Shown here: positions 4,027 through 64,000 of the stretch, in pieces | Numbering within the stretch: position 1 is the stretch's first letter | How the letters are laid out: each line of letters starts with the position of its first letter | Source: Moniliella sp. 'wahieum' | Taxonomy: Eukaryota | Length of the DNA: 64,000 bases | Direction of reading: 5' to 3' | Assembly: GCA_003971905.1 (NCBI GenBank) | Contig: RSEE01000139.1 | Coordinates: forward strand, 62,001 to 126,000 | Translations under genes and position numbers: made by a program | Notes under the pieces: model-generated | The model's input: only the letters and a program-made list of their open reading frames with translations | Told to the model about the DNA's origin: nothing | The model's database searches: none

Positions 4027-5138
4027 TACTGAGGAAAGGGCTGTATCAACAAAATATCGCTCCCAATCTGCGGCGATAAGAACGATTCGCGCACACAGTA
4101 TAGCTTGTTCATAAGAAAAAGTTGCGTCTCCATACGGACATTTGGGTTACCACTCGAACTCCGCTCCCGACGCCTCTGCCTCCGAGGACTGGGCCGTTGC
4201 TGGGGTGGAAAGGCCGCCTCCAGTCAAGGCGGCCTTCTCTTCATCCTCGTCGTCCGTAGGACTTGGAGATGGCTGGACAGCATGCTTGATGTACACCATA
4301 TTCTGCCCATCGCCCACATTGTCAATCCCCCCCGTCCCAGACGTCCGCGCCCTTGAGCATGATATTCTTCAGCGAGCGCTGTTTCAGTGTGGGCCGAGGC
4401 TTAATTACTTGCAGTCGCGCCTGGTTGGCCGAGGCAAACATGTATCGGTGCCGACAGCAAGATGCAGTCGCGCTGGTTGTAGGCGGTGACGACCTGCCGC
4501 CCCTCGAGCTGCGCGACGGGGGGGGAGAGCGATTGAAGCAACTGCCCACTGAGTGGCCACTCGGGGTAGTAAAGTTGTTGAGGATCAGCTCAGGTGTGTA
4601 GCTCGCCGAGATACCACGGTCGGCCAGAGTTCCTTCCAGAGCTGCAGTCCGGTGAGACGGAAGAACGCTGTAGGACCCTGAGGCAGCTATAGATGGCAGT
4701 CAAGGAGGCAGGTGCCTTGGTACGGCAGTCCTCCCGCGCCTCCAACATCGCATTGGACCCACGTTTGCTTGCCCATCCAGCAATTGGTCCAGACCATAAT
4801 CCCTTGGGCCTTGTCGCGGGGCGGTATTCAGCTTCCGGGATGAGTGATTAAGCAGGTCGCCAAGTAGCAAACATCCTCGTACGCTCGTAGGGACGCGCAG
4901 GGTTGTTGAGCGAAGGCACATAGGGCATAATCGAATTGATGGTCTGGCGCGGGCACTGGCCTGGCCTTTGCAGGCTAGTGTTGGAGCAGCTCAGGGCCAG
5001 AGTGAGTGTTTGGAGTGTTGATAATGGTGGGGCTGCAAGTGCGGGTATTTTCAATGGTACGTGGGATGTTGGTGGCCAGACGGTGGGTTCAGAGCTGTTT
5101 GTCCTCTTTCTCCGCCTAGCCGCTCGGCCCGGGGACAT
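4027..5138 (-). CDS. Hypothetical protein (frameshifted)
   Basis: Protein-like segments across frames (QQLYYPEWPLSGQLLQSL; KNIMLKGADVWDG; METQLFLMNKLYCVRESFLSPQIGSDILLIQPFPQ*); family not recognised. Confidence 0.4.
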
Positions 5139-32280: not shown

Positions 32281-33185
32281 ATGCGCACTACCGCCTTCTT
32301 CACTGCTCTTGTGGCCCTTGCCATCATCTGTCCGTACGCATTTGTCCACACACATCATACCAAACATGGACTCTTCCCGAACTCTCACTGACACACTGTA
32401 TCCTCAGAGGCCATGCCGCCCACCGTTCCCGAAACGAGCCTTGCGCCTCCCCTGAACCATTCCTCTCCTCCTCCGCATCACCCCCAGCACCGCGCTCTGG
32501 ACGGGGACAACCAACCGAACAAGGTACCGGTTCATTTCCCCCACACAAGCCGGGGCCTAAGCGAGGCCAGGCCCACCCTCCTCCGCCTCCTGCCAAGTCT
32601 GGTGGCCCGCGCCCGGAGAAAGGCCACGGCCAGGGGCCTGTGTCCAAGCGCGAGAAGAATGACCGTGCACGTCCTAAATCAGGTCTGCCCAAATCAGACC
32701 TGCCCAAGTCGGGTCTCCCGCCTAAGTCGAGCCCTCCTCCGGCTCCCAAGCACTCTGACGGCCACGAACCTGAAGTGAAGCGCCATGAGTCCCATCCGAC
32801 TCTGCCTCCTCCTCCGCCTCCCAAGGCCAGCCAGCCCCCCGAGCATGGGCATGGCGAACCGCCCGCGTCCAAGCGCGAAGAGGACCACCGTGCTCCTCCC
32901 AGGTCGGGTCTCCCGCCCATCCATTCCGCCCCCGGAACATGGGCATGGCGAACTGCCTGTGTCCAAGCGCGAAGAGGACCACCGTGCTCCTCCCAAGTCG
33001 GGTCTCCCGCCCAAGTCTATCCCGCCCCCCCAGGATGGACATGGCGAGCAGCCTGTTTCCAAGCGCGAAGAGGACCAGCATGCTCCGCCGCCCAATCCAG
33101 TCTTCCACCTCAGGCGAGCGCTCCCTTCGACGATAAACCGGCGCCCAAGCAGCCTAAGAAGAATTCGTCGCACGCTGCAGCTTAG
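32281..33185 (+). CDS. Secreted Kex2-processed repeat protein (KEP-like)
   Basis: Signal MRTTAFFTALVALA; intron 32334-32407; KR-delimited units KREEDHRAPPKSGLPPKSIPPP.(D/H)GHGE.PVS. Confidence 0.78.
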
Positions 33186-34553
33186 TCAAGCACAAGCGAA
33201 ACACGGCCTAAAAACAGGTTGGATCAATGGATCTAACCCAACCCGACATTGAGGGAGTTTCTTCTACAAGGCAACTCTCATTTCTCTGCCCGCGCAGAGG
33301 GGCGGGCAACTAAATGGACCCTCTCTACTTTTTTTTCTGTTGCATTTTTCCGTGGGGAGCAGGCTCCCCCCTTCTCCCCTTTTCTTTTGAGTTCTCTTCA
33401 ATCAGATGATACTAGAGGACCACCGGGCTTACGGCCCGGTCTGCGTACTCCTGGTGCTTTACCGTGCGTCTGTATTTTGAAAGCCTGGGGCTTCGCCCCA
33501 GCCTTCCTCCGTGTTGGTTGCGAACACCCCCGGTCATATTGGATGGGCTGCACGTGCTATTAGGTCAGAACTTGGCATCGAGCTCTCTGTTTTATTAAAG
33601 GGGGATGAACGATGATAAAATGATAGAATGTGAGGAGTGCGATCAGGCTTATAAGCAAGGCCTGGATCCTATCTGCATACAGCCCACCTCTGTCCACCGT
33701 GTGGTGCGAGAATGTCCAACTTCGGATTGAGTATGCCTATTCTGTTGTTTCTTCCCGTGCTTCCTTGGGTATCTGTGGTGCGGAAGCAGAAGGGTTAGGC
33801 ATGCAACCTCCCATTGATTGACCGAGTATAGATGACGGTCGTCCAGGGACAGGCGCCCTGCCAGCGCGAGCGCGGATGTTCCGGCGCTCAGCCACTCAGG
33901 CTGAGCCTCCGCCGACTGGGGCATAGAGCGGGCCAGGGACGGCAGTGTGGCCCTGTGCGGCGCGGATCTGATGGCCCCAAGAGGCAATCGCTTGGCACGC
34001 CAGGGTGCAGCTCGCACAGACAGCCGCCCCCCGCACGGCAGTGCTCAGCGCGGCAGACAGGGGCATGGTGCTCGCATTCGCCCCCAGCACGGCGCGGGTG
34101 CTCTCCAATGCAGCACTGGGGCAGCGCGCCGCCGCCACGCGAGGCTGCGCTATGCTGTGCCTGCCGAGGCGGCTGGTGCCTACCAGTGCTTGCTGGCGAC
34201 GGGAGAGTGGGCTGGTGCGGGGACGCGGCGAGCGGCGAGGCTGCGCCAAGCCGCGCGTGGTGCTGCTCTTGGCTGGTGGCGGTGGCGCGGCAGGTGCCAG
34301 CAGGCGCCAGCGCAGCGCAGTGCCCACACTGCTCTGAGATCTGATCCATGTATAGCTTGTCGCATAGCAGGCTGGGCAGCACGCAGCCGGCAGCCAGTAG
34401 CATCCCACCCCAGTCAATACGCGCGCTTCCATCTCCCACATCCACCTCTCCCCTTCTGTCCCAACCCCAACCCCACCCCATCCCCCCCCACCCTCCACCC
34501 CCCCACCTTCCTTCGCATCCGCCCCACACTCCTTAGCCCCCCCCCCTTCCGCC

Positions 34554-35789: not shown

Positions 35790-36585
35790 GTCCCACCTGG
35801 TTGTCTCCCCACCTCCTCCCAGCCATTGAGTGGCTGGAGGATACGGTATCCTATTTCGCGTCAGGCTTGTCCACCCTTGGTCCGTCCTTGGCATCTTCCT
35901 ATTATACCATTTGGGTTTACATTCATTTTCGTTTCCCTTTCCGATCACCTGATCACACCCCGCTCTTGTCCCACCTTCCTGCCAACGGGCTGTTACATCC
36001 CCATTTTCCTTTCTTTGTTCCCCGACACGAAGCTAGACTTCTGTACCGGATTGTCTGGAACTCTCGGAAACTGCTTCCGCACATGGTCACCTCTGGGTAG
36101 GTTGCCATCAAAGTAACGTTGTTGTTCACGCACCGTCAACGTTCCCGCGCTTCCACGTTCACGGTTTTTTCTTTTTTGTTCGCTCGCTGCTCTTTCCTTT
36201 TGCTTCTCCTTTTGCGTTTGCCTTTTTTCCCGTTTTCCTGTCCATCGTTACTTAATGGTTGGTCCTTTGCATCTCTTGTCTAGCGAATCACGTATCACGA
36301 AGAGAAACAGGAAATATCACTAGTATAGAGAGATGAGCCAAGGTTGGCTTGACGGTGTCTCTGCGCGGCGGCGGCGTAACTGTTCTACACGACATAACTT
36401 TGGGCCCCAGCCGCGCTAATGGCCACAAAGAGAGAAGGTGAATCTGCCAGACATGCAAAATGTGTGGCAAGACTGCCACTGTTATGGGGCGCGGCAAACC
36501 GACCACTGAGTGGCTGTCAATCTGGAGCGGAGAGGTGGAAAGCTGAGAGGGTGTTAGACTGTGATCCTGCAGCTGCTCTTATCCC

Positions 36586-36657
36586 GGCTCGATAGCGTAG
36601 TGGTAACGCATCCCTGGCCAATAGGCGATGACCTGGGTTCGAATCCCATTCGAGTCT
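36586..36657 (+). tRNA. tRNA-like gene with aberrant anticodon arm (nominal CCA; identity undetermined)
   Basis: Acceptor GGCTCGA/TCGAGTC, D-arm GCGT-AGTGGTA-ACGC, T-loop GGTTCGAATCC, downstream TTTT. Confidence 0.7.
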
Positions 36658-36855
36658 CTTCTTTTCCTCACTATTTCCCCCGGGCTGTGCCTTCTCACAG
36701 AGGGGAAAAGGCGGAAAGCAGAGGAGGCAACTCCCAGGAGGAGCTGTGCCTATACTGTATGGATTGATGACGATGGAGACGCCAATAGATTGCGTCAACA
36801 GGCGAGACGACGAGAGATGTCCGCGATCCACATCAACCCCCATGATGGATGATGC

Positions 36856-42300: not shown

Positions 42301-43005
42301 GTTTGCAAGGGGTAGAGAGCTGGTTTCGTACCGGACCCTACCGAAACGAGACTATGCGCAGTACCATCCTTGGTGGCTTGCCGCCGACTGGGGAGCCGGG
42401 TATGAGGACCGCGCTCGTACCGAGTTGATCAGCCACCCCCTTTTCTCCAATTCAGGAGTGCCACTGAAGCAGAATGACCAGTTCATCTCTTCCTTCCTTT
42501 CAGGCAAGGACGCTGATGGGCATCATATGGTTCAGCGTTCCGAAGAGGTGAAGGGGGGGGAAAGGAGAGCGTTGAGGTTGTGGAGCCAAGGAGGGGAGAG
42601 AAGCGGGTGGAGATGAGGCAGGGGCAGGAGAGGGAGAAGGAGGAATTGGAGGAAGGGGAATTGAAGGGGGAATTGGAAGACTCTGATACCGACGGAGTCC
42701 TCCCCCCACTCTCGGATCCTCTTACCCCTCCGACTCTCCCAGGACCAGAAGAAGATCCAGCACCTTTGACCCCGACTCGCCCTAGCCCGGAGGCAGACCC
42801 AGCACCTTTGACTCCCACTCGCTCAACCCCAGAGGCAGACCCAGCACCCTTAACCCCGACTCGCCCAGGACCAGAAGAAGAACCAACGCATATGCAAGGC
42901 GTCACACTCGACTTACGCACCCCATCCAAGTCGGCAATACCGTCCTCAACTACGGTCCCTCCATCGTCACCGCCTCTTCGGTATGGCACACCCTGTCGTG
43001 CTTGA
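39376..43005 (+). CDS. Large low-complexity protein, possibly PNUTS/Ppn1-like PP1 regulator
   Basis: Q-rich N-terminus, helical LVQQPRMLRHMRTWLQDL segment, basic stretch followed by KVHW (RVxF type), TP-rich repeats; frameshifts and probable intron ~41172-41428. Confidence 0.5.
42757..42882 (+). repeat. 42-bp tandem repeat x3 (PAPLTPTRPSPEAD)
   Basis: CCAGCACC units start at 42757, 42799, 42841. Confidence 0.9.
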
Positions 43006-45421
43006 ATATGAACGCAGCGAGGGGAAGAAAGTCAGCTCGCCCCTTTGGATATAGACATTCCCTGGGCCATGGGAAAGGACGGCACAACTCCTGGATCTGT
43101 CTAATCCATATGCCTTCAAGGTAATCCGTATGTGTGTTAAGCCACGAGTCCCGCTTCATCGTCTTGTTGATCCAACTAGGCATGGCTGCAGATGGAAGAA
43201 AGAAAATATGCAGGGGTGGAAAGCGTGTGGGCGGAACTCGTGCTCCGCGCGTCCGTGCGAGAGCTTGACAGCGATCAAATCTGGAGGCGAGCGAATCGAG
43301 CACAAGTAGGACCTGCTGTGGAGGCCAGCGCCTCTCATTGATGCCACGGTTAACCCTCCCACGGTTCTTGCAGACCCCGAAACGCCACAAGTGCTTAGGC
43401 CAGGGACCATTAACCCACCATTCGCCTAAGCTTAACCGCGACAGATCATCAGATAACGCGCAACAAGTTCACGCCGGATAATGGCATTTGTTGACTTGGC
43501 CCCAAGCCTTTCCAACTCTCCAGATGACCTCGATGGCATATGAGAGGGTGCATTGAAGCACCGTGGCGGTTCACAGGCGGAGTATACCCCGGCTTGCAGC
43601 GCGTATACCTCCAGAGTTCCATTATGAGGGGCTCACATAACGTCCCACACGTCTGGTCGCATGCCACAGCCGCCATCAACGGGCCATCCGCCGGAAAAGG
43701 TACTAACTATTGCACATGTTATACGCGGGGCCATGAGGCGCCCAAGGAAAATGAGGCTCACATAGCGCTCTTCTCGCGCTGAGGATGCTCAACAATCATC
43801 GACATCGAAACTCCTGGAGGTCGAGCTGAGGGAAACCCCTCTGCGGCAGCAGCTCCTGGAGGCAGAGCCGCTTGAGATGGAGTCTTAATCGATAATCAGA
43901 TGTAGATAAGCCTCCACATGCTCTTTTCAAGCTGCAAGCTTCAGGCTGCAAGCTTGAAGCTGCAATCACATCAGATCTGCCCTTCTTAGGATGCCCAAGG
44001 AACGGGATGGCATCAATTCTCTGGCCTCGTCAGATCAAACACGAAGTAGTCCTAGTCATTTAGTAGTCACCTGTACCTTGAAGCTAGTCGTGGTTACTAG
44101 TTACTAGTTACTTGTTACTTTTAGCAGTACCTTTTGCATGTCGAATTCACGTGTAGACAACAACTTCATCCAGGTAGGTGCATGTCCTGCTTCAAAAGCA
44201 ACTCTCAGACCTCAACGAGGAGTATCAGATCTGCGATATGAGACGAACACATGAAGCCGCGCTTTACGTTCTTTCGCTATCGATGCATCAATGGCCTTGG
44301 TGCATTAGTCGAGGGGATGCTGGCGGGATCTCTCCTGTTGCTGTTGCGGCTGTTGCTGCTATAGCACCTGTTGCGCCTGATGTGTAGCACCACGGCTTCT
44401 CTCTCCTAAAATGTATCGTCTGTCAATTATAGCAGAGGTTGAAAAGCGCGTAAGCAATTGTTTGCTGGACGCCAAAACGTCCTGAAGTTGCTCGCGGACC
44501 AGCTAGCAACTGGTCTTCTATATTTGGATTGGATCGAGCAAGCTGTCCGTACCAGATGAACCCCATGATGCATGAGCGAGCCAGTGGGAGGTGCAACGTA
44601 TTGTTGCCCATACCTTAAGCACTGTAAATGACATTATGACTGTGTCAGACCTGAGGCCTGGCTCAGGACTCACACAGGTTTTTCGAGAGGGCCAACCAGA
44701 TTGTGGTTCGGCAGGTGCGCTGTCAAAGACAAAAAAATGGCGGTTTTGTGTGAGAACATGGCTAATCGAAATTTCTTGCGCACAATCTTGTGCGCCTTGC
44801 CCACCTTGAATTTTGTACGTAGTCCTACAGGCCTCACATATCTATCCGGAACCTTGTTACCAGCATTTCGATTAGCTATGAAAAGATGCGTCCTGAGAAC
44901 CTGGGGTGCGGGGCAAGTTCGGAATAGGAATGAGTCACTACCTTTCCGGGACACGAATAAGAGTAGTGAGATAGTGCTGTAATATGCATGCCACGTGGTG
45001 TCAGAATACCCAGGACGAGTGTTTGAGATGAATGTTCATATTGCTTTCCCAGTCAATATCTGTTCGCTTTTCTCACTCTGCCGAGACATATTTTTGACCC
45101 CGGAAAATCGCAACAGCAGGTTATGCATTATGCGCGACCGGAGGATGCACGGTTCTGGAGACGACAGCTCCGCACGCAAGGCTGAAGGCTATTGCCCATA
45201 CGCCGAGCGCCGACTAAGAGTTGTTCGCATGCGAGCAAGCGACCTCTCTCTACTGTTTATATAAGTCCAACCTATCCAGGGTAGTAGTGTGTCTCGTTCC
45301 CTACACCGTCCGCCACACCAAGCGACCCTTTTCATCGAGTAAGTGCAAGCGGTCAAATTTCCCTGTTTTGTTTTCATGGTCCCGACTGAGCATTAACACT
45401 AGTAACTCACTTTCCGTCAGT

Positions 45422-59460: not shown

Positions 59461-60606
59461 CGATATCCATACTTGTGGGCAATCACCATCAATGTTAGGC
59501 GTAATGCTCAGCCTGTGCTACAACGGCATCGTGTGTGATCAATGCGAGTAGGTGGATACATATAGGTTCAATATCATGTCTGGTGTGCACCATCAGGATT
59601 GCCATCAGGAAATGACCCCTGTGACGACCCTGACCGTGCAAGCGTCGCAGAAGCTCAGTCCTTTCGAAGACGGTACACCGGGCTATATAGGCTGGCTCCA
59701 AGTGCTGCGTGAAAGAGGTACAAGAGTCTTGGGTATATGCGGAATGCTTCCATTGCCGTTTTCCTAAATTAGGAAATCAGAATGAAAGTGCTCCAACTAT
59801 GCACGGGCAAGCGGTCCCCAACGTACTGGCTGTTTGCCAGCATAAGTTTTGTAAGCGCAAAGGAGAGGACGAATCGACAACGAGAAGGAGGAGACAAGTC
59901 TGATTTCATATCGGGAACGAGGCTTACGAGCGCATATAATCAAAGGAGGAGAGAACATATGCTCGTCAAAAGCATTGTCCATTGTTTCTGAGGGCTATAA
60001 ATGCATTTCTGTGGCTAATATCGGGCGCAGCGGCAGGTGTTCCACAAGGTCGGTGTGGCCGGGCAAACGATGATGTGTGACGGGCGCCATATTCCCATGA
60101 CCGGCGGTGGAAGTTACGATTAGATAGGGACGACATCGCTTAGGTTGTACTATGACCTAACGGTGCATGTCCTTTGAGGATGAACAGGTCGTCGAATTTT
60201 AGGGCACCGAATGTATGTTTTAGTTGGCGCGGAGGGGTCCGGCTGGTCACTTATCAATCAAGACTTACACCCACCTGTAAATCCTAGGGAAAACAACGCA
60301 CCGTTGTCTGCCTGGACCCCAGAGTCGAAGGCGGTCTTTGTTGGGACTACCAAAAGAATGTGTTGCCTCAGGCCTCATCAGCGTTTGCGAAGCCTGTATA
60401 AAGGAGCGCTCCACTCCCCCCCACCATCTACATAGCAGCAGCAAAACCCTACTGAGCCAAATGGATGAGGATATTTCAACATTGCAATCACAAGCGGAAC
60501 CAGCGCCGAAATTTTGTGACCGGGCGGAATGGGCAGCGGGATGGCGCAACTGTCCTCAGGAAGAAGAGTTTGCTGGCCCCCACCACACCCAATTCTGCTC
60601 CCCATC

Positions 60607-61522
60607 ATGTCAGGTTTGCCAGCTAAGCCCACCGCGCCCATGGGCAACGTTCCTGCCGCCGAGCCCACCGAGCCTACCGCTTCGCCACCCCAAGCCTTCC
60701 TCTGCGTCCAACGACGAGGAGGCGGGGGACAAGACGGTGTTTGATGACCAGGAAAATTTTACTCTCTCGCACCCGCTTGCTTCCACCTGGACCATGTACG
60801 CCGACCTGCCCAGCTCCAATCGCCGCGCCACCTCTTCTTCCTGGGGCCAAACGATGGAGAAGCTGGCCGACGTGGACACAGTCGAGGCGTTCACTGGGTA
60901 CGTGCCAACCCTTTTCCGAACCCTTCTTTTTCCACCCCCTCCCCTCCCCTTGGCGCAGCACGAAAGCTAACCACGAACCACTGCTGTCAGTCTGTTCCAC
61001 CATGTGCCTGCGCCGACGCAGCTTGGCCAAAAAATGACTTTTTACCTTTTCCGGGATGGAATTCAGCCGGCCTGGGAAGACAAGGGGAACGTTGGTGGTG
61101 GCTCATGGAACGTGCAGTTCCCCAGGGACAAGCGGCGAGCAAGATTGATGACATGTGCGCAACACGATGCTTGCCGCGATTGGCGAGACGTTGGACATTC
61201 CTTTCCCCTCGGCGCGCGTCCGATCCAGAACCTGGACAAGGCCCCCTCGGTCGTGGCTGGCGTCGCGTTGGCGGCGCGGCCGAACTTTTACCGTATTTCT
61301 ATCTGGACCGCTCGCCGCCGGATGCGAACAAGAATGCGGAGGATGATGTGGCGCGCATCGGCCAGCGCACGTACGATGTCGGCTTGAACTTCAAGGTCCA
61401 TGCTCTTGGCTTTACGCAGGAAGAAAGGTTGAGACCGCTACGGCTCCGAGGTCGAGTTCCAGTCCATGAGGATGCAGGTCCGGAACAAGGGCCGCAAGGG
61501 TAAAAGTGGGCGTTTAGGTTAA
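60607..61522 (+). CDS. Translation initiation factor eIF4E family member (divergent)
   Basis: TVFDD..F...HPL..TWTMY, SSW, VEAFTG(intron 60898-60990)LF, YLFRDGIQPAWED, GGSW, MLAAIGET, RPNFYRISIWT; TATAAA ~60397. Confidence 0.88.
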
Positions 61523-61939
61523 CCCTTTCGTGTAGTAGTCTACCGACCGCGTCTCTTCTTCCTCTGCTCTTCCCCCTCGTGCGAGACTCTACAGTGGAGT
61601 GGTAGAGCGCTCTGCCTGTGAGCCGCTAGACCCTAACTGCCGGCCCCTACAGCTTACATGCCCCCAACCCATGGCCATTTCTCTTGTGCCGCTATTTCTA
61701 CGAATCCCTTTTCTCCCTCGTGGGCTTGTGCTTCTGCGTCACGTTATTCGGATGTCATCTTGTCTACACCAACTCCCAAAAGCCATGCATCTTGCTTGTT
61801 CTTGCCCAACATGTCACATGTTGCCAATGCAGCTCCGTGCGTTCCAGGACCACAAGGCGTTCGGCTGGAAAAGGTTCGAGCCCTCGGTTGGCTGGACTGG
61901 ATACTAGGCACTGGGAAGCGGGCAGTTGCATCTTATAGG

Positions 61940-63560
61940 GGCTCAGGCGCTCAGGCGCTCAGGCTGAGCTATGATATTGACGGATGACTTGGACGACCGA
62001 CAGGAGAATGCGTGGGAGGCCTTGCCGCCGCGAAACGGGGGCCAATGTACCTAGCCCGTTAAACTACTCGATTGGTTGGTCCGGTAGTTAGGGGTCAGTA
62101 CTCAGTCGCTGACCCGATCAGAATGTGTTGAGCGTTAGTACGTTGAATGTTACGCTTATACGCCAACGCGTCAACGTTCACGTTAAGCGTTAAGCGCTAA
62201 GCCTTAAGTAGCGCAGCAGAGAGAAGAGCCGCGGCTTCCTAGGGACTTGAAGAGCTTGAAGCTTGAAGCTTGACACCCAGGGTTGGATGGAGTAGGTCGA
62301 TTAAATACCGAATGAACCAGGGGCACCAGCAGGGACACTCAAGGAAGGGGCAGGGACGCCGACGCTAAGTACGTTAAACGTTAAACGTTGAACGTTGAAG
62401 CTTTGAAGCTCATCTGGGCAAGATGGCCAGATAGAAGGATGCCCTTGGAAACGGTGCAAAACAGGGAGGGAGCATCGAGCACACGGCTATGCTGGTGCCG
62501 CACGTGCTGGCCCAGAAGAGGCGGTGTACGGAATATAAGGATGTGCGCCTCCATCATGCATCGCTAGCACTAGTCACTAGCTCGTTAGGAAAAGTGAATG
62601 AGTGCGCTGCCTTCGACGGCCTGGGTCTTCTGAAGCAGGGCGCAGTGCGGGAACGCCGTAGCTTGAACAATGGCCCCGTGGTGCAGATGTGCAAGTTGCG
62701 CCAGACCGCCAGTTTGATCGCAGCTGGTACCAGTAAGTTGGTACTAATACTTCGTGGACTCTGTACTCAGTGTACTCACGTACTTAAGAGTTGAGTTACT
62801 CACAGTACCTCAAGCCTCAGGCGGCCTCAGGCTCAGTACCGAGTACTGATTAATAACTGATTGCATCGGCTGCTGCGTGGCGCCTCGGAGCGTTAGAGAG
62901 TACGTATCTCAGAGAGAGGATCTCAGATGTCATCATGTCATCGAATCGACGATCTCGGTACGGAGTCGGGACTTGTTAGTAGTGACTAGTGACTAGTGAC
63001 TAGTGGCTCCAGCTAGTGACGAGTGACTAGTGACTAGTAACGCGTAACGCTTCATAACGATGGGACGTTGGGAGTGGTTGGAACGCCCCATGCGCAGCGC
63101 CGACAGCCTCCATTGCCGGTTTCATAACCTCTTCAGTTTAATCGAATCCCTGTCGCTCCCTACCACCCTACCTTACGAGCTTTGATGTGCCCCGTACCGG
63201 TGACGGATGGTGGGTGGTTGATACTCAAAACGGAATGTACTGAATCGATAGTCGATAGTCCTTGGTAAATTTGAAAGCTCAATAGCGAATGCAGTGCCCC
63301 GTGCTGAGTGGCTGAGCCTTGCTGCGCCGTTGCGGGCATGTTGAGCAGCGGCCTGCAGCGGCTGAGCGGCTGCCTGCGCCTGCTGCGCCCGCTCTGGAAC
63401 CTGGGGTGTCCGGTGTGTGGCTTGAAAAATCCCGAAGATAGGGGCGGGAACGCCCATTGTACTACGTTCAACGTTCAACGTAGTGTTCGTTCGAACGTCG
63501 TTGAGGTTGAACTTGATGCGGTTCTCATCGATCATCGACTATCGACCATCGATTCTCCAT
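61940..63560. repeat. Longest patchwork of palindrome-core heptamer arrays
   Basis: TCAGTACTCAGT, TAAGCGTTAAGCGCTAAG, TGAAGCTTGAAGCTTGA, TAAACGTTAAACGTTGAACGTTGAA, (TGACTAG)3, TAACGCGTAACGC, TCAACGTTCAACG, TCATCGATCATCGA. Confidence 0.88.
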
Positions 63561-64000
63561 GATGATGTTGATGATGCAGATGCCGGGGGCATCTGGTGCA
63601 TCGTTCTTTGATGCTGGGATGGTCGATGGGGGCTCTGACGCATCCTCAGGCTCAGGCCTCATGAAGACGAAGTCTGAATACTCAGACTTACTGATGCTAA
63701 ACAGACTCATACGCAATCGCTCTAAGATCCCATCGCGCTCAGTCGAACAGCGATCTTACCGTCTTGCCCGTGTGTGGACGGAGATCCAAGAACCTCCTCT
63801 GCTTGGTTTTCGGGGCCGACGGGTCGAAGGGTGTCCCAGTGTTGGGAACGTTGAGCGGGGAGTACATGGTGCAGACATAATACGTACCTGGTGGGGGGTG
63901 TGGCCTGGTGTGGCCTGGTGCACCTGGGAGGCAGGCTGGCTGGCAGCAGCCATCGGCGCAGTGTAGCGCACATCATGCATGATCGTCATGCACCATGCCG

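What the first reader, a model, noticed from the sequence alone, without database searches (positions are those of the whole stretch)
61940..63560. One rule, many sequences: intergenic [T-N-A + 4-bp palindrome] heptamer arrays
Seen: short arrays with 7-nt period in which TNA alternates with a 4-bp palindrome, creating 6-bp palindromes A-xxxx-T. The core changes block by block: AAGCTT (62254-62272), AACGTT (62371-62400), AGCGCT (~62185-62200), AGTACT (~62095, 62760-62850), ACTAGT (62978-63038), ACGCGT (63038-63050), ATCGAT (63525-63553); AGGCCT, ACATGT, ATGCAT, AGATCT and ACCGGT occur elsewhere in the window. The middle N flips between complementary forms (TGA/TCA, TAA/TTA), so units occur in both orientations. 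Inference: one transposon or one DNA-binding motif cannot give about 12 different cores with identical geometry; a sequence-independent generator such as fold-back/hairpin-templated synthesis or template switching during repair, or a shape-read chromatin signal, fits better. From memory Ustilago maydis intergenic DNA is rich in ATTCACG/ATTCGTG heptamer runs, which may be related but is unverified here.
Basis: partly seen in the sequence, partly recalled or inferred. Interest (0 to 1): 0.8.

Follow-up and report, generated by a model that had tools for sequence, protein, structure and literature searches.

The report
Transposon scars stacked into heptamer repeats
The 7-letter repeats between the genes of this smut-related fungus are real and most likely scars left where a cut-and-paste jumping gene, which duplicates seven bases around T-any-A, landed and left again, piled up in very large numbers.

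Summary
The pattern is real: 76 T.A-palindrome-T.A units in the window against 7.2±2.2 in shuffles, for the T.A spacer only, and 0 in 12.4 kb of conserved sequence against 48 in 37.2 kb elsewhere. A second copy of the region (about 3% diverged) shows births: 36 of 64 clean 7-nt indels turn ab-TNA-xy into TNA-xy-y'x'-TNA-xy or its mirror, keeping N. Rarer 9-nt indels duplicate all seven bases. This fits a 7-bp target duplication whose ends were hairpinned and opened two bases from the tip. Following earlier scan notes I located a TIR family with an EnSpm/CMC-like transposase remnant. Five of its six two-ended copies sit in exact 7-bp NN-TNA-NN duplications. An inversion at 62583-63038 ends at two such sites. 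Open: scars (about 65,000, extrapolated) vastly outnumber elements, the extant family's targets are narrower than the scar spectrum, and excision was not shown. The scan found this pattern before on other DNA of this genome.

The parts
61937..61964 (.). 8-nt variant array (7-bp duplication plus one P base) around TCA
   Evidence: indel at 61957 fits the model
62086..62092 (.). Empty target site AG-TTA-GG; the C25 copy carries the 7-nt scar here
62095..62104 (.). Unit TCA-GTAC-TCA
62171..62200 (.). Units with ACGT (62171) and GCGC (62191) cores, partly decayed cluster
62257..62273 (.). AGCT-core array; a 9-nt indel at 62253 duplicates a full NN-TNA-NN plus 2 P bases
62375..62410 (.). Two-block array, ACGT cores running into AG/AGCT, as expected from left- and right-flank scars at one site
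62569..62590 (.). Left inversion junction: half of a CTAG-core array joined to the inverted complete 7-mer target CC-TAA-CG
62583..63038 (.). 456-bp segment inverted relative to the C25 copy
62983..63049 (.). CTAG-core array (other half, inverted) and right inversion junction with TAA-CG plus a CGCG unit
63171..63177 (.). Empty target site CC-TTA-C(G/A); the C25 copy carries TTA-CATG-TTA
63468..63477 (.). Unit TCA-ACGT-TCA
63525..63553 (.). TCGA-core array; in C25 expanded to about nine further imperfect CCA-TCGA units (slippage)
63652..63661 (.). Unit TCA-GGCC-TCA
60606..61520 (+). Context: eIF4E-like gene (approximate ends). The array cluster lies between its 3' end and an amino-acid permease gene on + just past the window end
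   Evidence: Pfam IF4E and AA_permease; conserved blocks

Best explanation
The units are excision footprints of a cut-and-paste DNA transposon of the EnSpm/CMC(T) type that targets NN-TNA-NN and duplicates all 7 bases. Step 1: insertion gives abTNAxy-[element]-abTNAxy (shown for extant copies). Step 2: excision seals each flank as a perfect hairpin (inferred from even-centred P bases and from known Transib/RAG/MULE chemistry). Step 3: a host nuclease opens each hairpin 2 nt past the tip, giving two 4-nt self-complementary overhangs, xyy'x' and b'a'ab (inferred). Step 4: end joining usually keeps one overhang and drops the other, giving TNA-xyy'x'-TNA or TNA-b'a'ab-TNA, a net +7 with the same N (products shown, joining route inferred). 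Step 5: the new site is again a target and a tandem repeat, so repeated hits and slippage grow arrays with one core from each flank (array anatomy shown). Mis-joining of ends at two such sites gives inversions like 62583-63038 (inferred). The huge excess of scars over elements suggests hit-and-run events, in which the element is re-cut soon after landing, or long purging of elements while scars persist (inferred).
For: Homeolog alignments (141.7 kb of columns, 4741 substitutions) show clean indels peaking at 7 nt (64, against 24 at 6 and 19 at 8). 36 of 64 fit the TNA model with P bases; the same test centred on GNC gives 2, CNG 0, ANT 0. All 3 of the 15 clean 9-nt indels that fit duplicate an exact NN-TNA-NN plus 2 P bases. 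Edges are asymmetric: of 463 single-core same-N units, 290 have the half-core on one side only, 73 on both and 100 on neither; chance is about 1/16 per side. Three gains can be polarised inside repeat families (1 of 8, 1 of 4 and 1 of 5 copies; two with a 1-nt irregularity, one with an added substitution; read by eye). TIR family: 5 of 6 two-ended copies (C23, C29, C34, C35, short C20) have exact 7-bp TNA-centred duplications, in unrelated flanks. Of 19 ends found by a flank-blind DNA search, 18 are preceded by T-N-A-N-N; 12 of these were pre-selected by my pattern, and 6 of the 7 others also comply. 17 of those 18 flank dinucleotides (TG, AC, TC, AG, CC) begin the five commonest cores; these ends are not independent. 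The C23 copy encodes the H-x3-H...E region of EnSpm-like transposases (HMM E 1.5e-9; DUF4218-like clusters).
Against: About 65,000 units genome-wide (extrapolated from 749 same-N units in 749 kb, less about 40 expected by chance) stand against 6 two-ended copies and a few lone ends. No element with a 7-bp duplication was seen in about 850 kb of held DNA or among the 18 large indels inspected. The extant duplications are narrow (three copies share one 7-mer, consensus roughly GW-TSA-TG), while birth sites are diverse (only 7 of 40 have TG/CA next to TNA), so this family alone may not explain the spectrum. The one copy read in full is decayed, with nested LTR and Helitron-like pieces. No intact transposase of this family was seen and no excision was observed. 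Joins that keep both overhangs (11 nt) were 0 of 6. Most births could not be polarised with an outgroup. 28 of 64 clean 7-nt indels do not fit the strict TNA model.
Confidence: 0.72

Rival explanations
1. Element-free cutting: a domesticated transposase or host nuclease makes 7-nt staggered breaks at NN-TNA-NN in open chromatin; fill-in and hairpin closure give the same scars with no element ever inserted.
For: Scars outnumber elements by about four orders of magnitude. Two CMC-like genes show no TIR in 13 kb around them (C17, syntenic in its homeolog C62; C34, single copy) and have array-rich, host-like upstream regions. Births cluster near older units: 22 of 29 within 25-250 bp against 28% of random TNA sites, which include coding ones.
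Against: Both genes show frame breaks, and the C62 copy reads with stops, though the assembly has many 1-2-nt indels. Neither matches the 7-bp family at DNA level beyond a nested LTR. Hairpin closure of a filled-in blunt end needs chemistry that an element-bound transposase supplies naturally. A real family with the predicted 7-bp duplication exists.
Confidence: 0.15
2. One reading: polymerase fold-back or template switching (a U-turn on a displaced flap at a nick) copies 5 bases and adds 2 inverted ones; slippage then extends the arrays.
For: The commonest product (5-nt duplication plus 2 inverted nt) can be drawn this way. Slippage is real, as in the imperfect-unit expansion in C25 at 63526. 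A small excess of N-flipped units exists (64 C/G flips against about 14 expected).
Against: It is strictly T.A-specific, while GNC and CNG, which would pair better, show nothing. Fold-back through the palindrome would complement N, but N is kept in 749 of 900 units. CCA/TGG births keep CCA in both copies, so T-A pairing is not what is used. The 9-nt events delimit an exact 7-bp duplication that matches a transposon TSD.
Confidence: 0.08
3. The arrays are a selected signal (shape-read chromatin mark, protein-binding code, or stop codons in all frames) kept by selection.
For: They are non-coding and clustered (variance 2.66 against mean 0.81 per kb), and here lie upstream of a gene. TNA is a stop codon on one strand and period 7 cycles through the frames.
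Against: Selection does not predict flank-templated cores, one-sided half-cores, or rapid gain and loss between copies only 3% apart. Units also arise inside LTRs and MITEs. Absence from exons follows from a +7 frameshift.
Confidence: 0.04
4. Sequencing or assembly artefact.
For: The assembly is indel-rich (1220 one-base and 478 two-base indels; frame breaks in eIF4E).
Against: Arrays are shared at orthologous places in two diverged copies, absent from conserved coding blocks, and match the TSD of a real element.
Confidence: 0.01

Closest known systems
CMCT clade (EnSpm/CACTA, Mirage, Chapaev, Transib, Plavaka, ESTA; PMC12730594, abstract and sections 3.1 and 3.2 read) and CNEST/CNIRT6 of Cryptococcus (PMC12810828, passages)
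   Same: H-x3-H motif before the last E, long TIRs with subterminal repeats, basidiomycete host
   Different: 7-bp TNA-centred duplication instead of 2-5 bp; ends begin CT-CAC rather than CA
RAG/Transib/MULE flank hairpins and P nucleotides (PMC5499845, passages; PMC2175297, abstract and outline)
   Same: Even-centred palindromic additions of mostly 2 nt at the flank boundary, within the 1-4 nt opening range reported for Artemis
   Different: Here one overhang is kept and the other dropped, giving a stereotyped +7 product, iterated into arrays genome-wide; Muta1 excision in yeast is mostly precise
hAT (Ac/Ds) footprints (PMC5873905, passages); hAT7 and Kyakuja with 7-bp TSDs (PMC12730594)
   Same: Target duplication plus P nucleotides; 7-bp TSDs occur in basidiomycetes
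   Different: Ac/Ds palindromes are centred on one complemented base (odd), these are even-centred; the element's protein is CMC-like; no hAT dimerisation or KDZ match was found (weak searches)
Ordinary heptanucleotide microsatellites
   Same: Period-7 copy-number change by slippage occurs
   Different: The seed is made by duplication plus inversion, and its sequence is dictated by the flank; 0 of 121 metagenome loci with an AAGCTT heptamer run show the multi-core rule

Membership tests
Hairpin-type transposon excision footprint | Target duplication retained around the joint | tested here: met
   5 to 7 of the 7 bases duplicated in fitted indels
Hairpin-type transposon excision footprint | Added bases are the reverse complement of the flank end (P nucleotides) | tested here: met
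   36 of 64 clean 7-nt indels; controls 0-2
Hairpin-type transposon excision footprint | An element with the matching TSD exists in the genome | tested here: met
   5 of 6 two-ended copies with exact 7-bp NN-TNA-NN
Hairpin-type transposon excision footprint | Same site seen with the element in one allele and the scar in another, or excision observed | not tested
EnSpm/CMCT transposon (the element) | DDE transposase with C(2)C and H(3-4)H motifs | tested here: inconclusive
   H-x3-H and a downstream E align; the two Ds and C(2)C were not recovered in the one decayed copy read
EnSpm/CMCT transposon (the element) | 5'-CA..TG-3' termini (most members) | tested here: not met
   All ends begin CTCACTG
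EnSpm/CMCT transposon (the element) | 2-5-bp TSD | tested here: not met
   7 bp; so it works like, and is related to, CMCT but is not filed as canonical EnSpm
EnSpm/CMCT transposon (the element) | TIRs with subterminal repeats | tested here: met
   About 60-80-bp TIR and tandem subterminal repeats
hAT / hAT7 | Odd-centred palindrome on the complemented border base | tested here: not met
   Even-centred xy|y'x' joints, N unchanged
hAT / hAT7 | hAT transposase in the genome | tested here: inconclusive
   PF05699 no match, but the control rang nowhere
MULE, KDZ/Kyakuja, PIF/Harbinger, Plavaka | Transposase profile match in the genome | tested here: inconclusive
   No match for PF10551, PF18758, PF13359, PF18759; PF13960 also missed the element that carries that region, so these searches are insensitive

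The most novel reading that the evidence does not exclude
A RAG-like, TNA-targeting transposase (mobile, or domesticated as the TIR-less CMC genes on C17/C62 or C34) works mainly as a hit-and-run or element-free mutator. It continually writes flank-templated 7-bp scars and inversions into open, gene-upstream DNA of this fungus, about one birth per 120 substitutions (40 per 4741), making it a major and possibly host-retained source of regulatory sequence change.
Probability: 0.2. Interest if true: 0.85.

Novelty: new variant of a known kind. Interest (0 to 1): 0.58.

Why it matters
Footprints are normally rare, local marks. Here they appear to be a genome-wide mutational signature of tens of thousands of sites that seeds a whole class of simple repeats and marks rearrangement breakpoints. 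They record past transposition long after the elements are gone. They also give natural evidence that an EnSpm-like transposase leaves perfect (RAG-type) flank hairpins, and point to a CMC-related lineage with a 7-bp TNA-centred target duplication outside the 2-5 bp given for that clade in PMC12730594. The prediction is exact and testable in yeast. I found no description in print, in nine library searches that ran; the library lacks most subscription journals and Repbase reports.

Tried and rejected
No sequencing run was listed for 60400-64000, so neither reads nor RNA could be laid. The TIR+TSD scan of about 850 kb of held DNA found no 7-bp element. An apparent 4-kb element on C5 was two inverted copies of a 117-bp MITE with a 2-bp TSD. 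Dispersed repeats in the sample were solo LTRs (5-bp TSD), Helitron-like pieces and that MITE. Profile searches for MULE, hAT, KDZ, Harbinger, DUF4218 and Plavaka gave no match. A weak CMC hit on C145 was spurious. A homologue search with the 494-aa C34 frame found nothing among longer proteins. Patterns ending CTCACTG-G, -T or -C gave no paired ends; only -A did (7 and 11 matches unlisted). Models worked through and rejected on geometry: 2-nt (Spo11-like) or 4-nt stagger with an odd hairpin, 3-bp TNA TSD (Harbinger-like), Ac-type central transversions, and fold-back through the palindrome (predicts flipped N). The U. maydis heptamers turned up only inside a primer in PMC2219887 (one passage). 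No supplements were read; Repbase-type data in the supplement of PMC12730594 could hold a 7-bp CMC family.

Full report
Setting. The window is C139:62001-126000 of a 69.5-Mb assembly in 223 contigs. An MSP1-type AAA frame has its closest named relatives in Ustilaginomycotina (Tilletiaria, Violaceomyces, Exobasidium, Ustilago, 88-90% over the aligned part), so this is a smut-related basidiomycete. The finding lies between an eIF4E-like gene and an amino-acid permease gene, both on +. The assembly holds a second copy of the region on C25 and a third on C71 that aligns mainly in exons, at about 80%. The C25 copy differs by 3.3% substitutions over 141.7 kb of columns from two regions, which allowed array births to be caught.

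Observation. It is confirmed. The window has 76 T.A-palindrome-T.A units against 7.2±2.2 in shuffles; non-palindromic cores and the other 15 spacers are near chance. Period 7 is special (99 of 181 arrays self-complementary; 10 of 237 at period 6, 1 of 30 at period 8). One two-core pattern occurs 973 times genome-wide against 4 for its control. In 749 kb from 11 contigs there are 900 units using all 16 cores, AT-only cores rarest, and N is the same on both sides in 749. Units are absent from 12.4 kb of sequence conserved with C71 (0, against 48 in 37.2 kb), and cluster. That argues against an artefact, although the assembly has many 1-2-nt indels and no reads were listed.

How units are born. 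Clean indels between the copies peak at 7 nt (64, against 24 at 6 nt and 19 at 8 nt). 36 of the 64 convert a site ab-TNA-xy into TNA-xy-y'x'-TNA-xy or ab-TNA-b'a'-ab-TNA; the same test centred on GNC, CNG or ANT fits 2, 0 and 0, and CCA/TGG fits 2. Some of the 36 are unit gains or losses in existing arrays. Across 6-10 nt, 40 fitted events are at sites not already palindromic. Two lie in the finding itself (62086-62092 and 63171-63177, scar on C25). The inverted bases always lie on the side away from TNA. Three 9-nt indels duplicate an exact NN-TNA-NN and add 2 inverted bases, and 8- and 6-nt forms with one inverted base also occur. So the duplicated target is 7 bp and centred on TNA. Standing units agree: 290 of 463 single-core units carry the half-core on one side only, and two-core arrays generally take the left core from the left flank and the right core from the right flank (read by eye). 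Three gains could be polarised within repeat families, each with a small irregularity; the rest could not be polarised. Dropped before these counts: indels without 8 gap-free flanking columns (6 of 70 at 7 nt). 28 of the 64 did not fit.

The inversion. Window 62583-63038 is inverted against C25. On C25 one end lies inside a CTAG-core array and the other at a single site CC-TAA-CG. In the window the array is split, the complete 7-mer stands inverted at the left junction, and its last 5 bases stand at the right junction. This is what mis-joining of four ends from two 7-bp-duplicated sites would leave (inference).

The agent. Before looking at earlier notes I gave a transposon 20%. Notes from other windows pointed to 5-kb elements with CTCACTG ends, and I tested this. 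A pattern search gave paired ends 4.9-5.0 kb apart on C11, C23, C29, C34 and C35, and 0.4 kb apart on C20. Five of these six have exact 7-bp duplications, all NN-TNA-NN, in unrelated flanks; C11 has two different TNA-centred flanks. A flank-blind DNA search with one end found 19 ends at 71-100% identity, 18 of them preceded by T-N-A-N-N; 12 were pre-selected, and 6 of the 7 others comply. The one interior read (C23) is decayed and carries nested LTR and Helitron-like pieces. It keeps the H-x3-H...E region of EnSpm-like transposases (profile of 54 fungal-type CMC sequences, E 1.5e-9; DUF4218-like clusters at 0.96 with a recognition value below the tool's threshold). PMC12730594 (sections 3.1 and 3.2 read) places EnSpm, Transib and RAG1 in one clade sharing this motif, with CA..TG ends and 2-5-bp TSDs, and reports 7-bp TSDs for hAT7 and Kyakuja. 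PMC5499845 (passages) states that hAT, Transib, RAG and MULE hairpin the flank. PMC5873905 (passages) shows Ac/Ds palindromes centred on a complemented base, which is not the geometry here. PMC2175297 (abstract) gives hairpin opening 1-4 nt 3' of the tip. A DRMBL-domain (Artemis/Pso2-type) match exists in the genome. That EnSpm-type transposases make perfect flank hairpins is my inference from the clade and from these scars, not something I read.

What does not fit well. Scars number about 65,000 by extrapolation, against a handful of elements. None lay in about 850 kb of held DNA. The extant duplications are narrow (three copies share one 7-mer), whereas birth sites are diverse, so other or older families, or element-free cutting, must contribute. 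One way out is hit-and-run: after strand transfer and gap fill, the flank 3'-OH already sits at the element border, as in the nicked intermediate, so the transposase could hairpin it and leave at once. This is inference; a similar resolution of RAG transposition intermediates is recalled, not read. Two CMC-like genes without visible TIRs (C17, syntenic on C62; C34, single copy) keep the element-free rival alive, but show frame breaks that may be decay or assembly error. Slippage also acts, and a few per cent of units have a complemented N, perhaps from longer hairpin opening.

Verdict. The feature is real, and best read as iterated footprints of a TNA-targeting, 7-bp-duplicating EnSpm-related transposase (0.72). 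Rivals: element-free nuclease (0.15), polymerase fold-back (0.08), selected signal (0.04), artefact (0.01). It works like RAG/Transib hairpin excision. The element fails two canonical EnSpm features (termini, TSD length), so it is a variant related to CMCT and not a filed member. No other organism with the rule was found (0 of 121 metagenome loci). The scan has noted the pattern and the element before on other pieces of this genome. Novelty: new variant of a known kind; interest 0.58.

Noticed in passing
G000 C139 / C25 / C71; C1 / C25 / C55; C17 / C62: The assembly holds copies at about 92% and about 80% identity with broken synteny (hybrid, polyploid or mixed haplotypes); several eIF4E-like copies elsewhere.
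   Followed up: partly
window 60606-61520 and homeolog alignments: Many 1-2-nt indels and frame breaks inside genes suggest an unpolished long-read assembly.
   Followed up: no
L103:4900-7900 (C17:556-559 kb) and L105:4250-7700 (C34:513-517 kb): Two CMC/EnSpm-like transposase genes without visible TIRs; the C17 one is syntenic on C62, the C34 one is single-copy and lies about 8 kb from a 7-bp-TSD element. Possibly domesticated.
   Followed up: partly
window 44757-44880: 117-124-bp MITE with CAT(A/G)G ends and a 2-bp TSD, at least 40 copies; this copy carries a scar-like insertion.
   Followed up: partly
window 33411-33605: 194-bp insertion absent from C25, with a CTAG end and hairpin, Helitron-like.
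   Followed up: no
window 36550-36703: tRNA-like 153-bp stretch present in the window and absent from C25; not scanned with a tRNA finder.
   Followed up: no
window 4043-4876: 833-bp segment absent from C25, no target duplication seen.
   Followed up: no
window 32820-33086 and 42730-42885: 94-bp and 42-bp tandem repeats, the first with more copies on C25.
   Followed up: no
L005-L006 (C139:48.8-51.4 kb): 2.5-kb TG..CA element with a 5-bp duplication centred on TGA, absent from C25.
   Followed up: no
C11:228236-233094: Full-length copy of the 7-bp family with two different TNA-centred flanks, perhaps a recombinant of two insertions and so a rearrangement breakpoint.
   Followed up: no
L242:2185-2324: Weak minus-strand matches to the Transposase_21 region inside the C23 element (E 0.007-0.009), possibly an internal inversion.
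   Followed up: no
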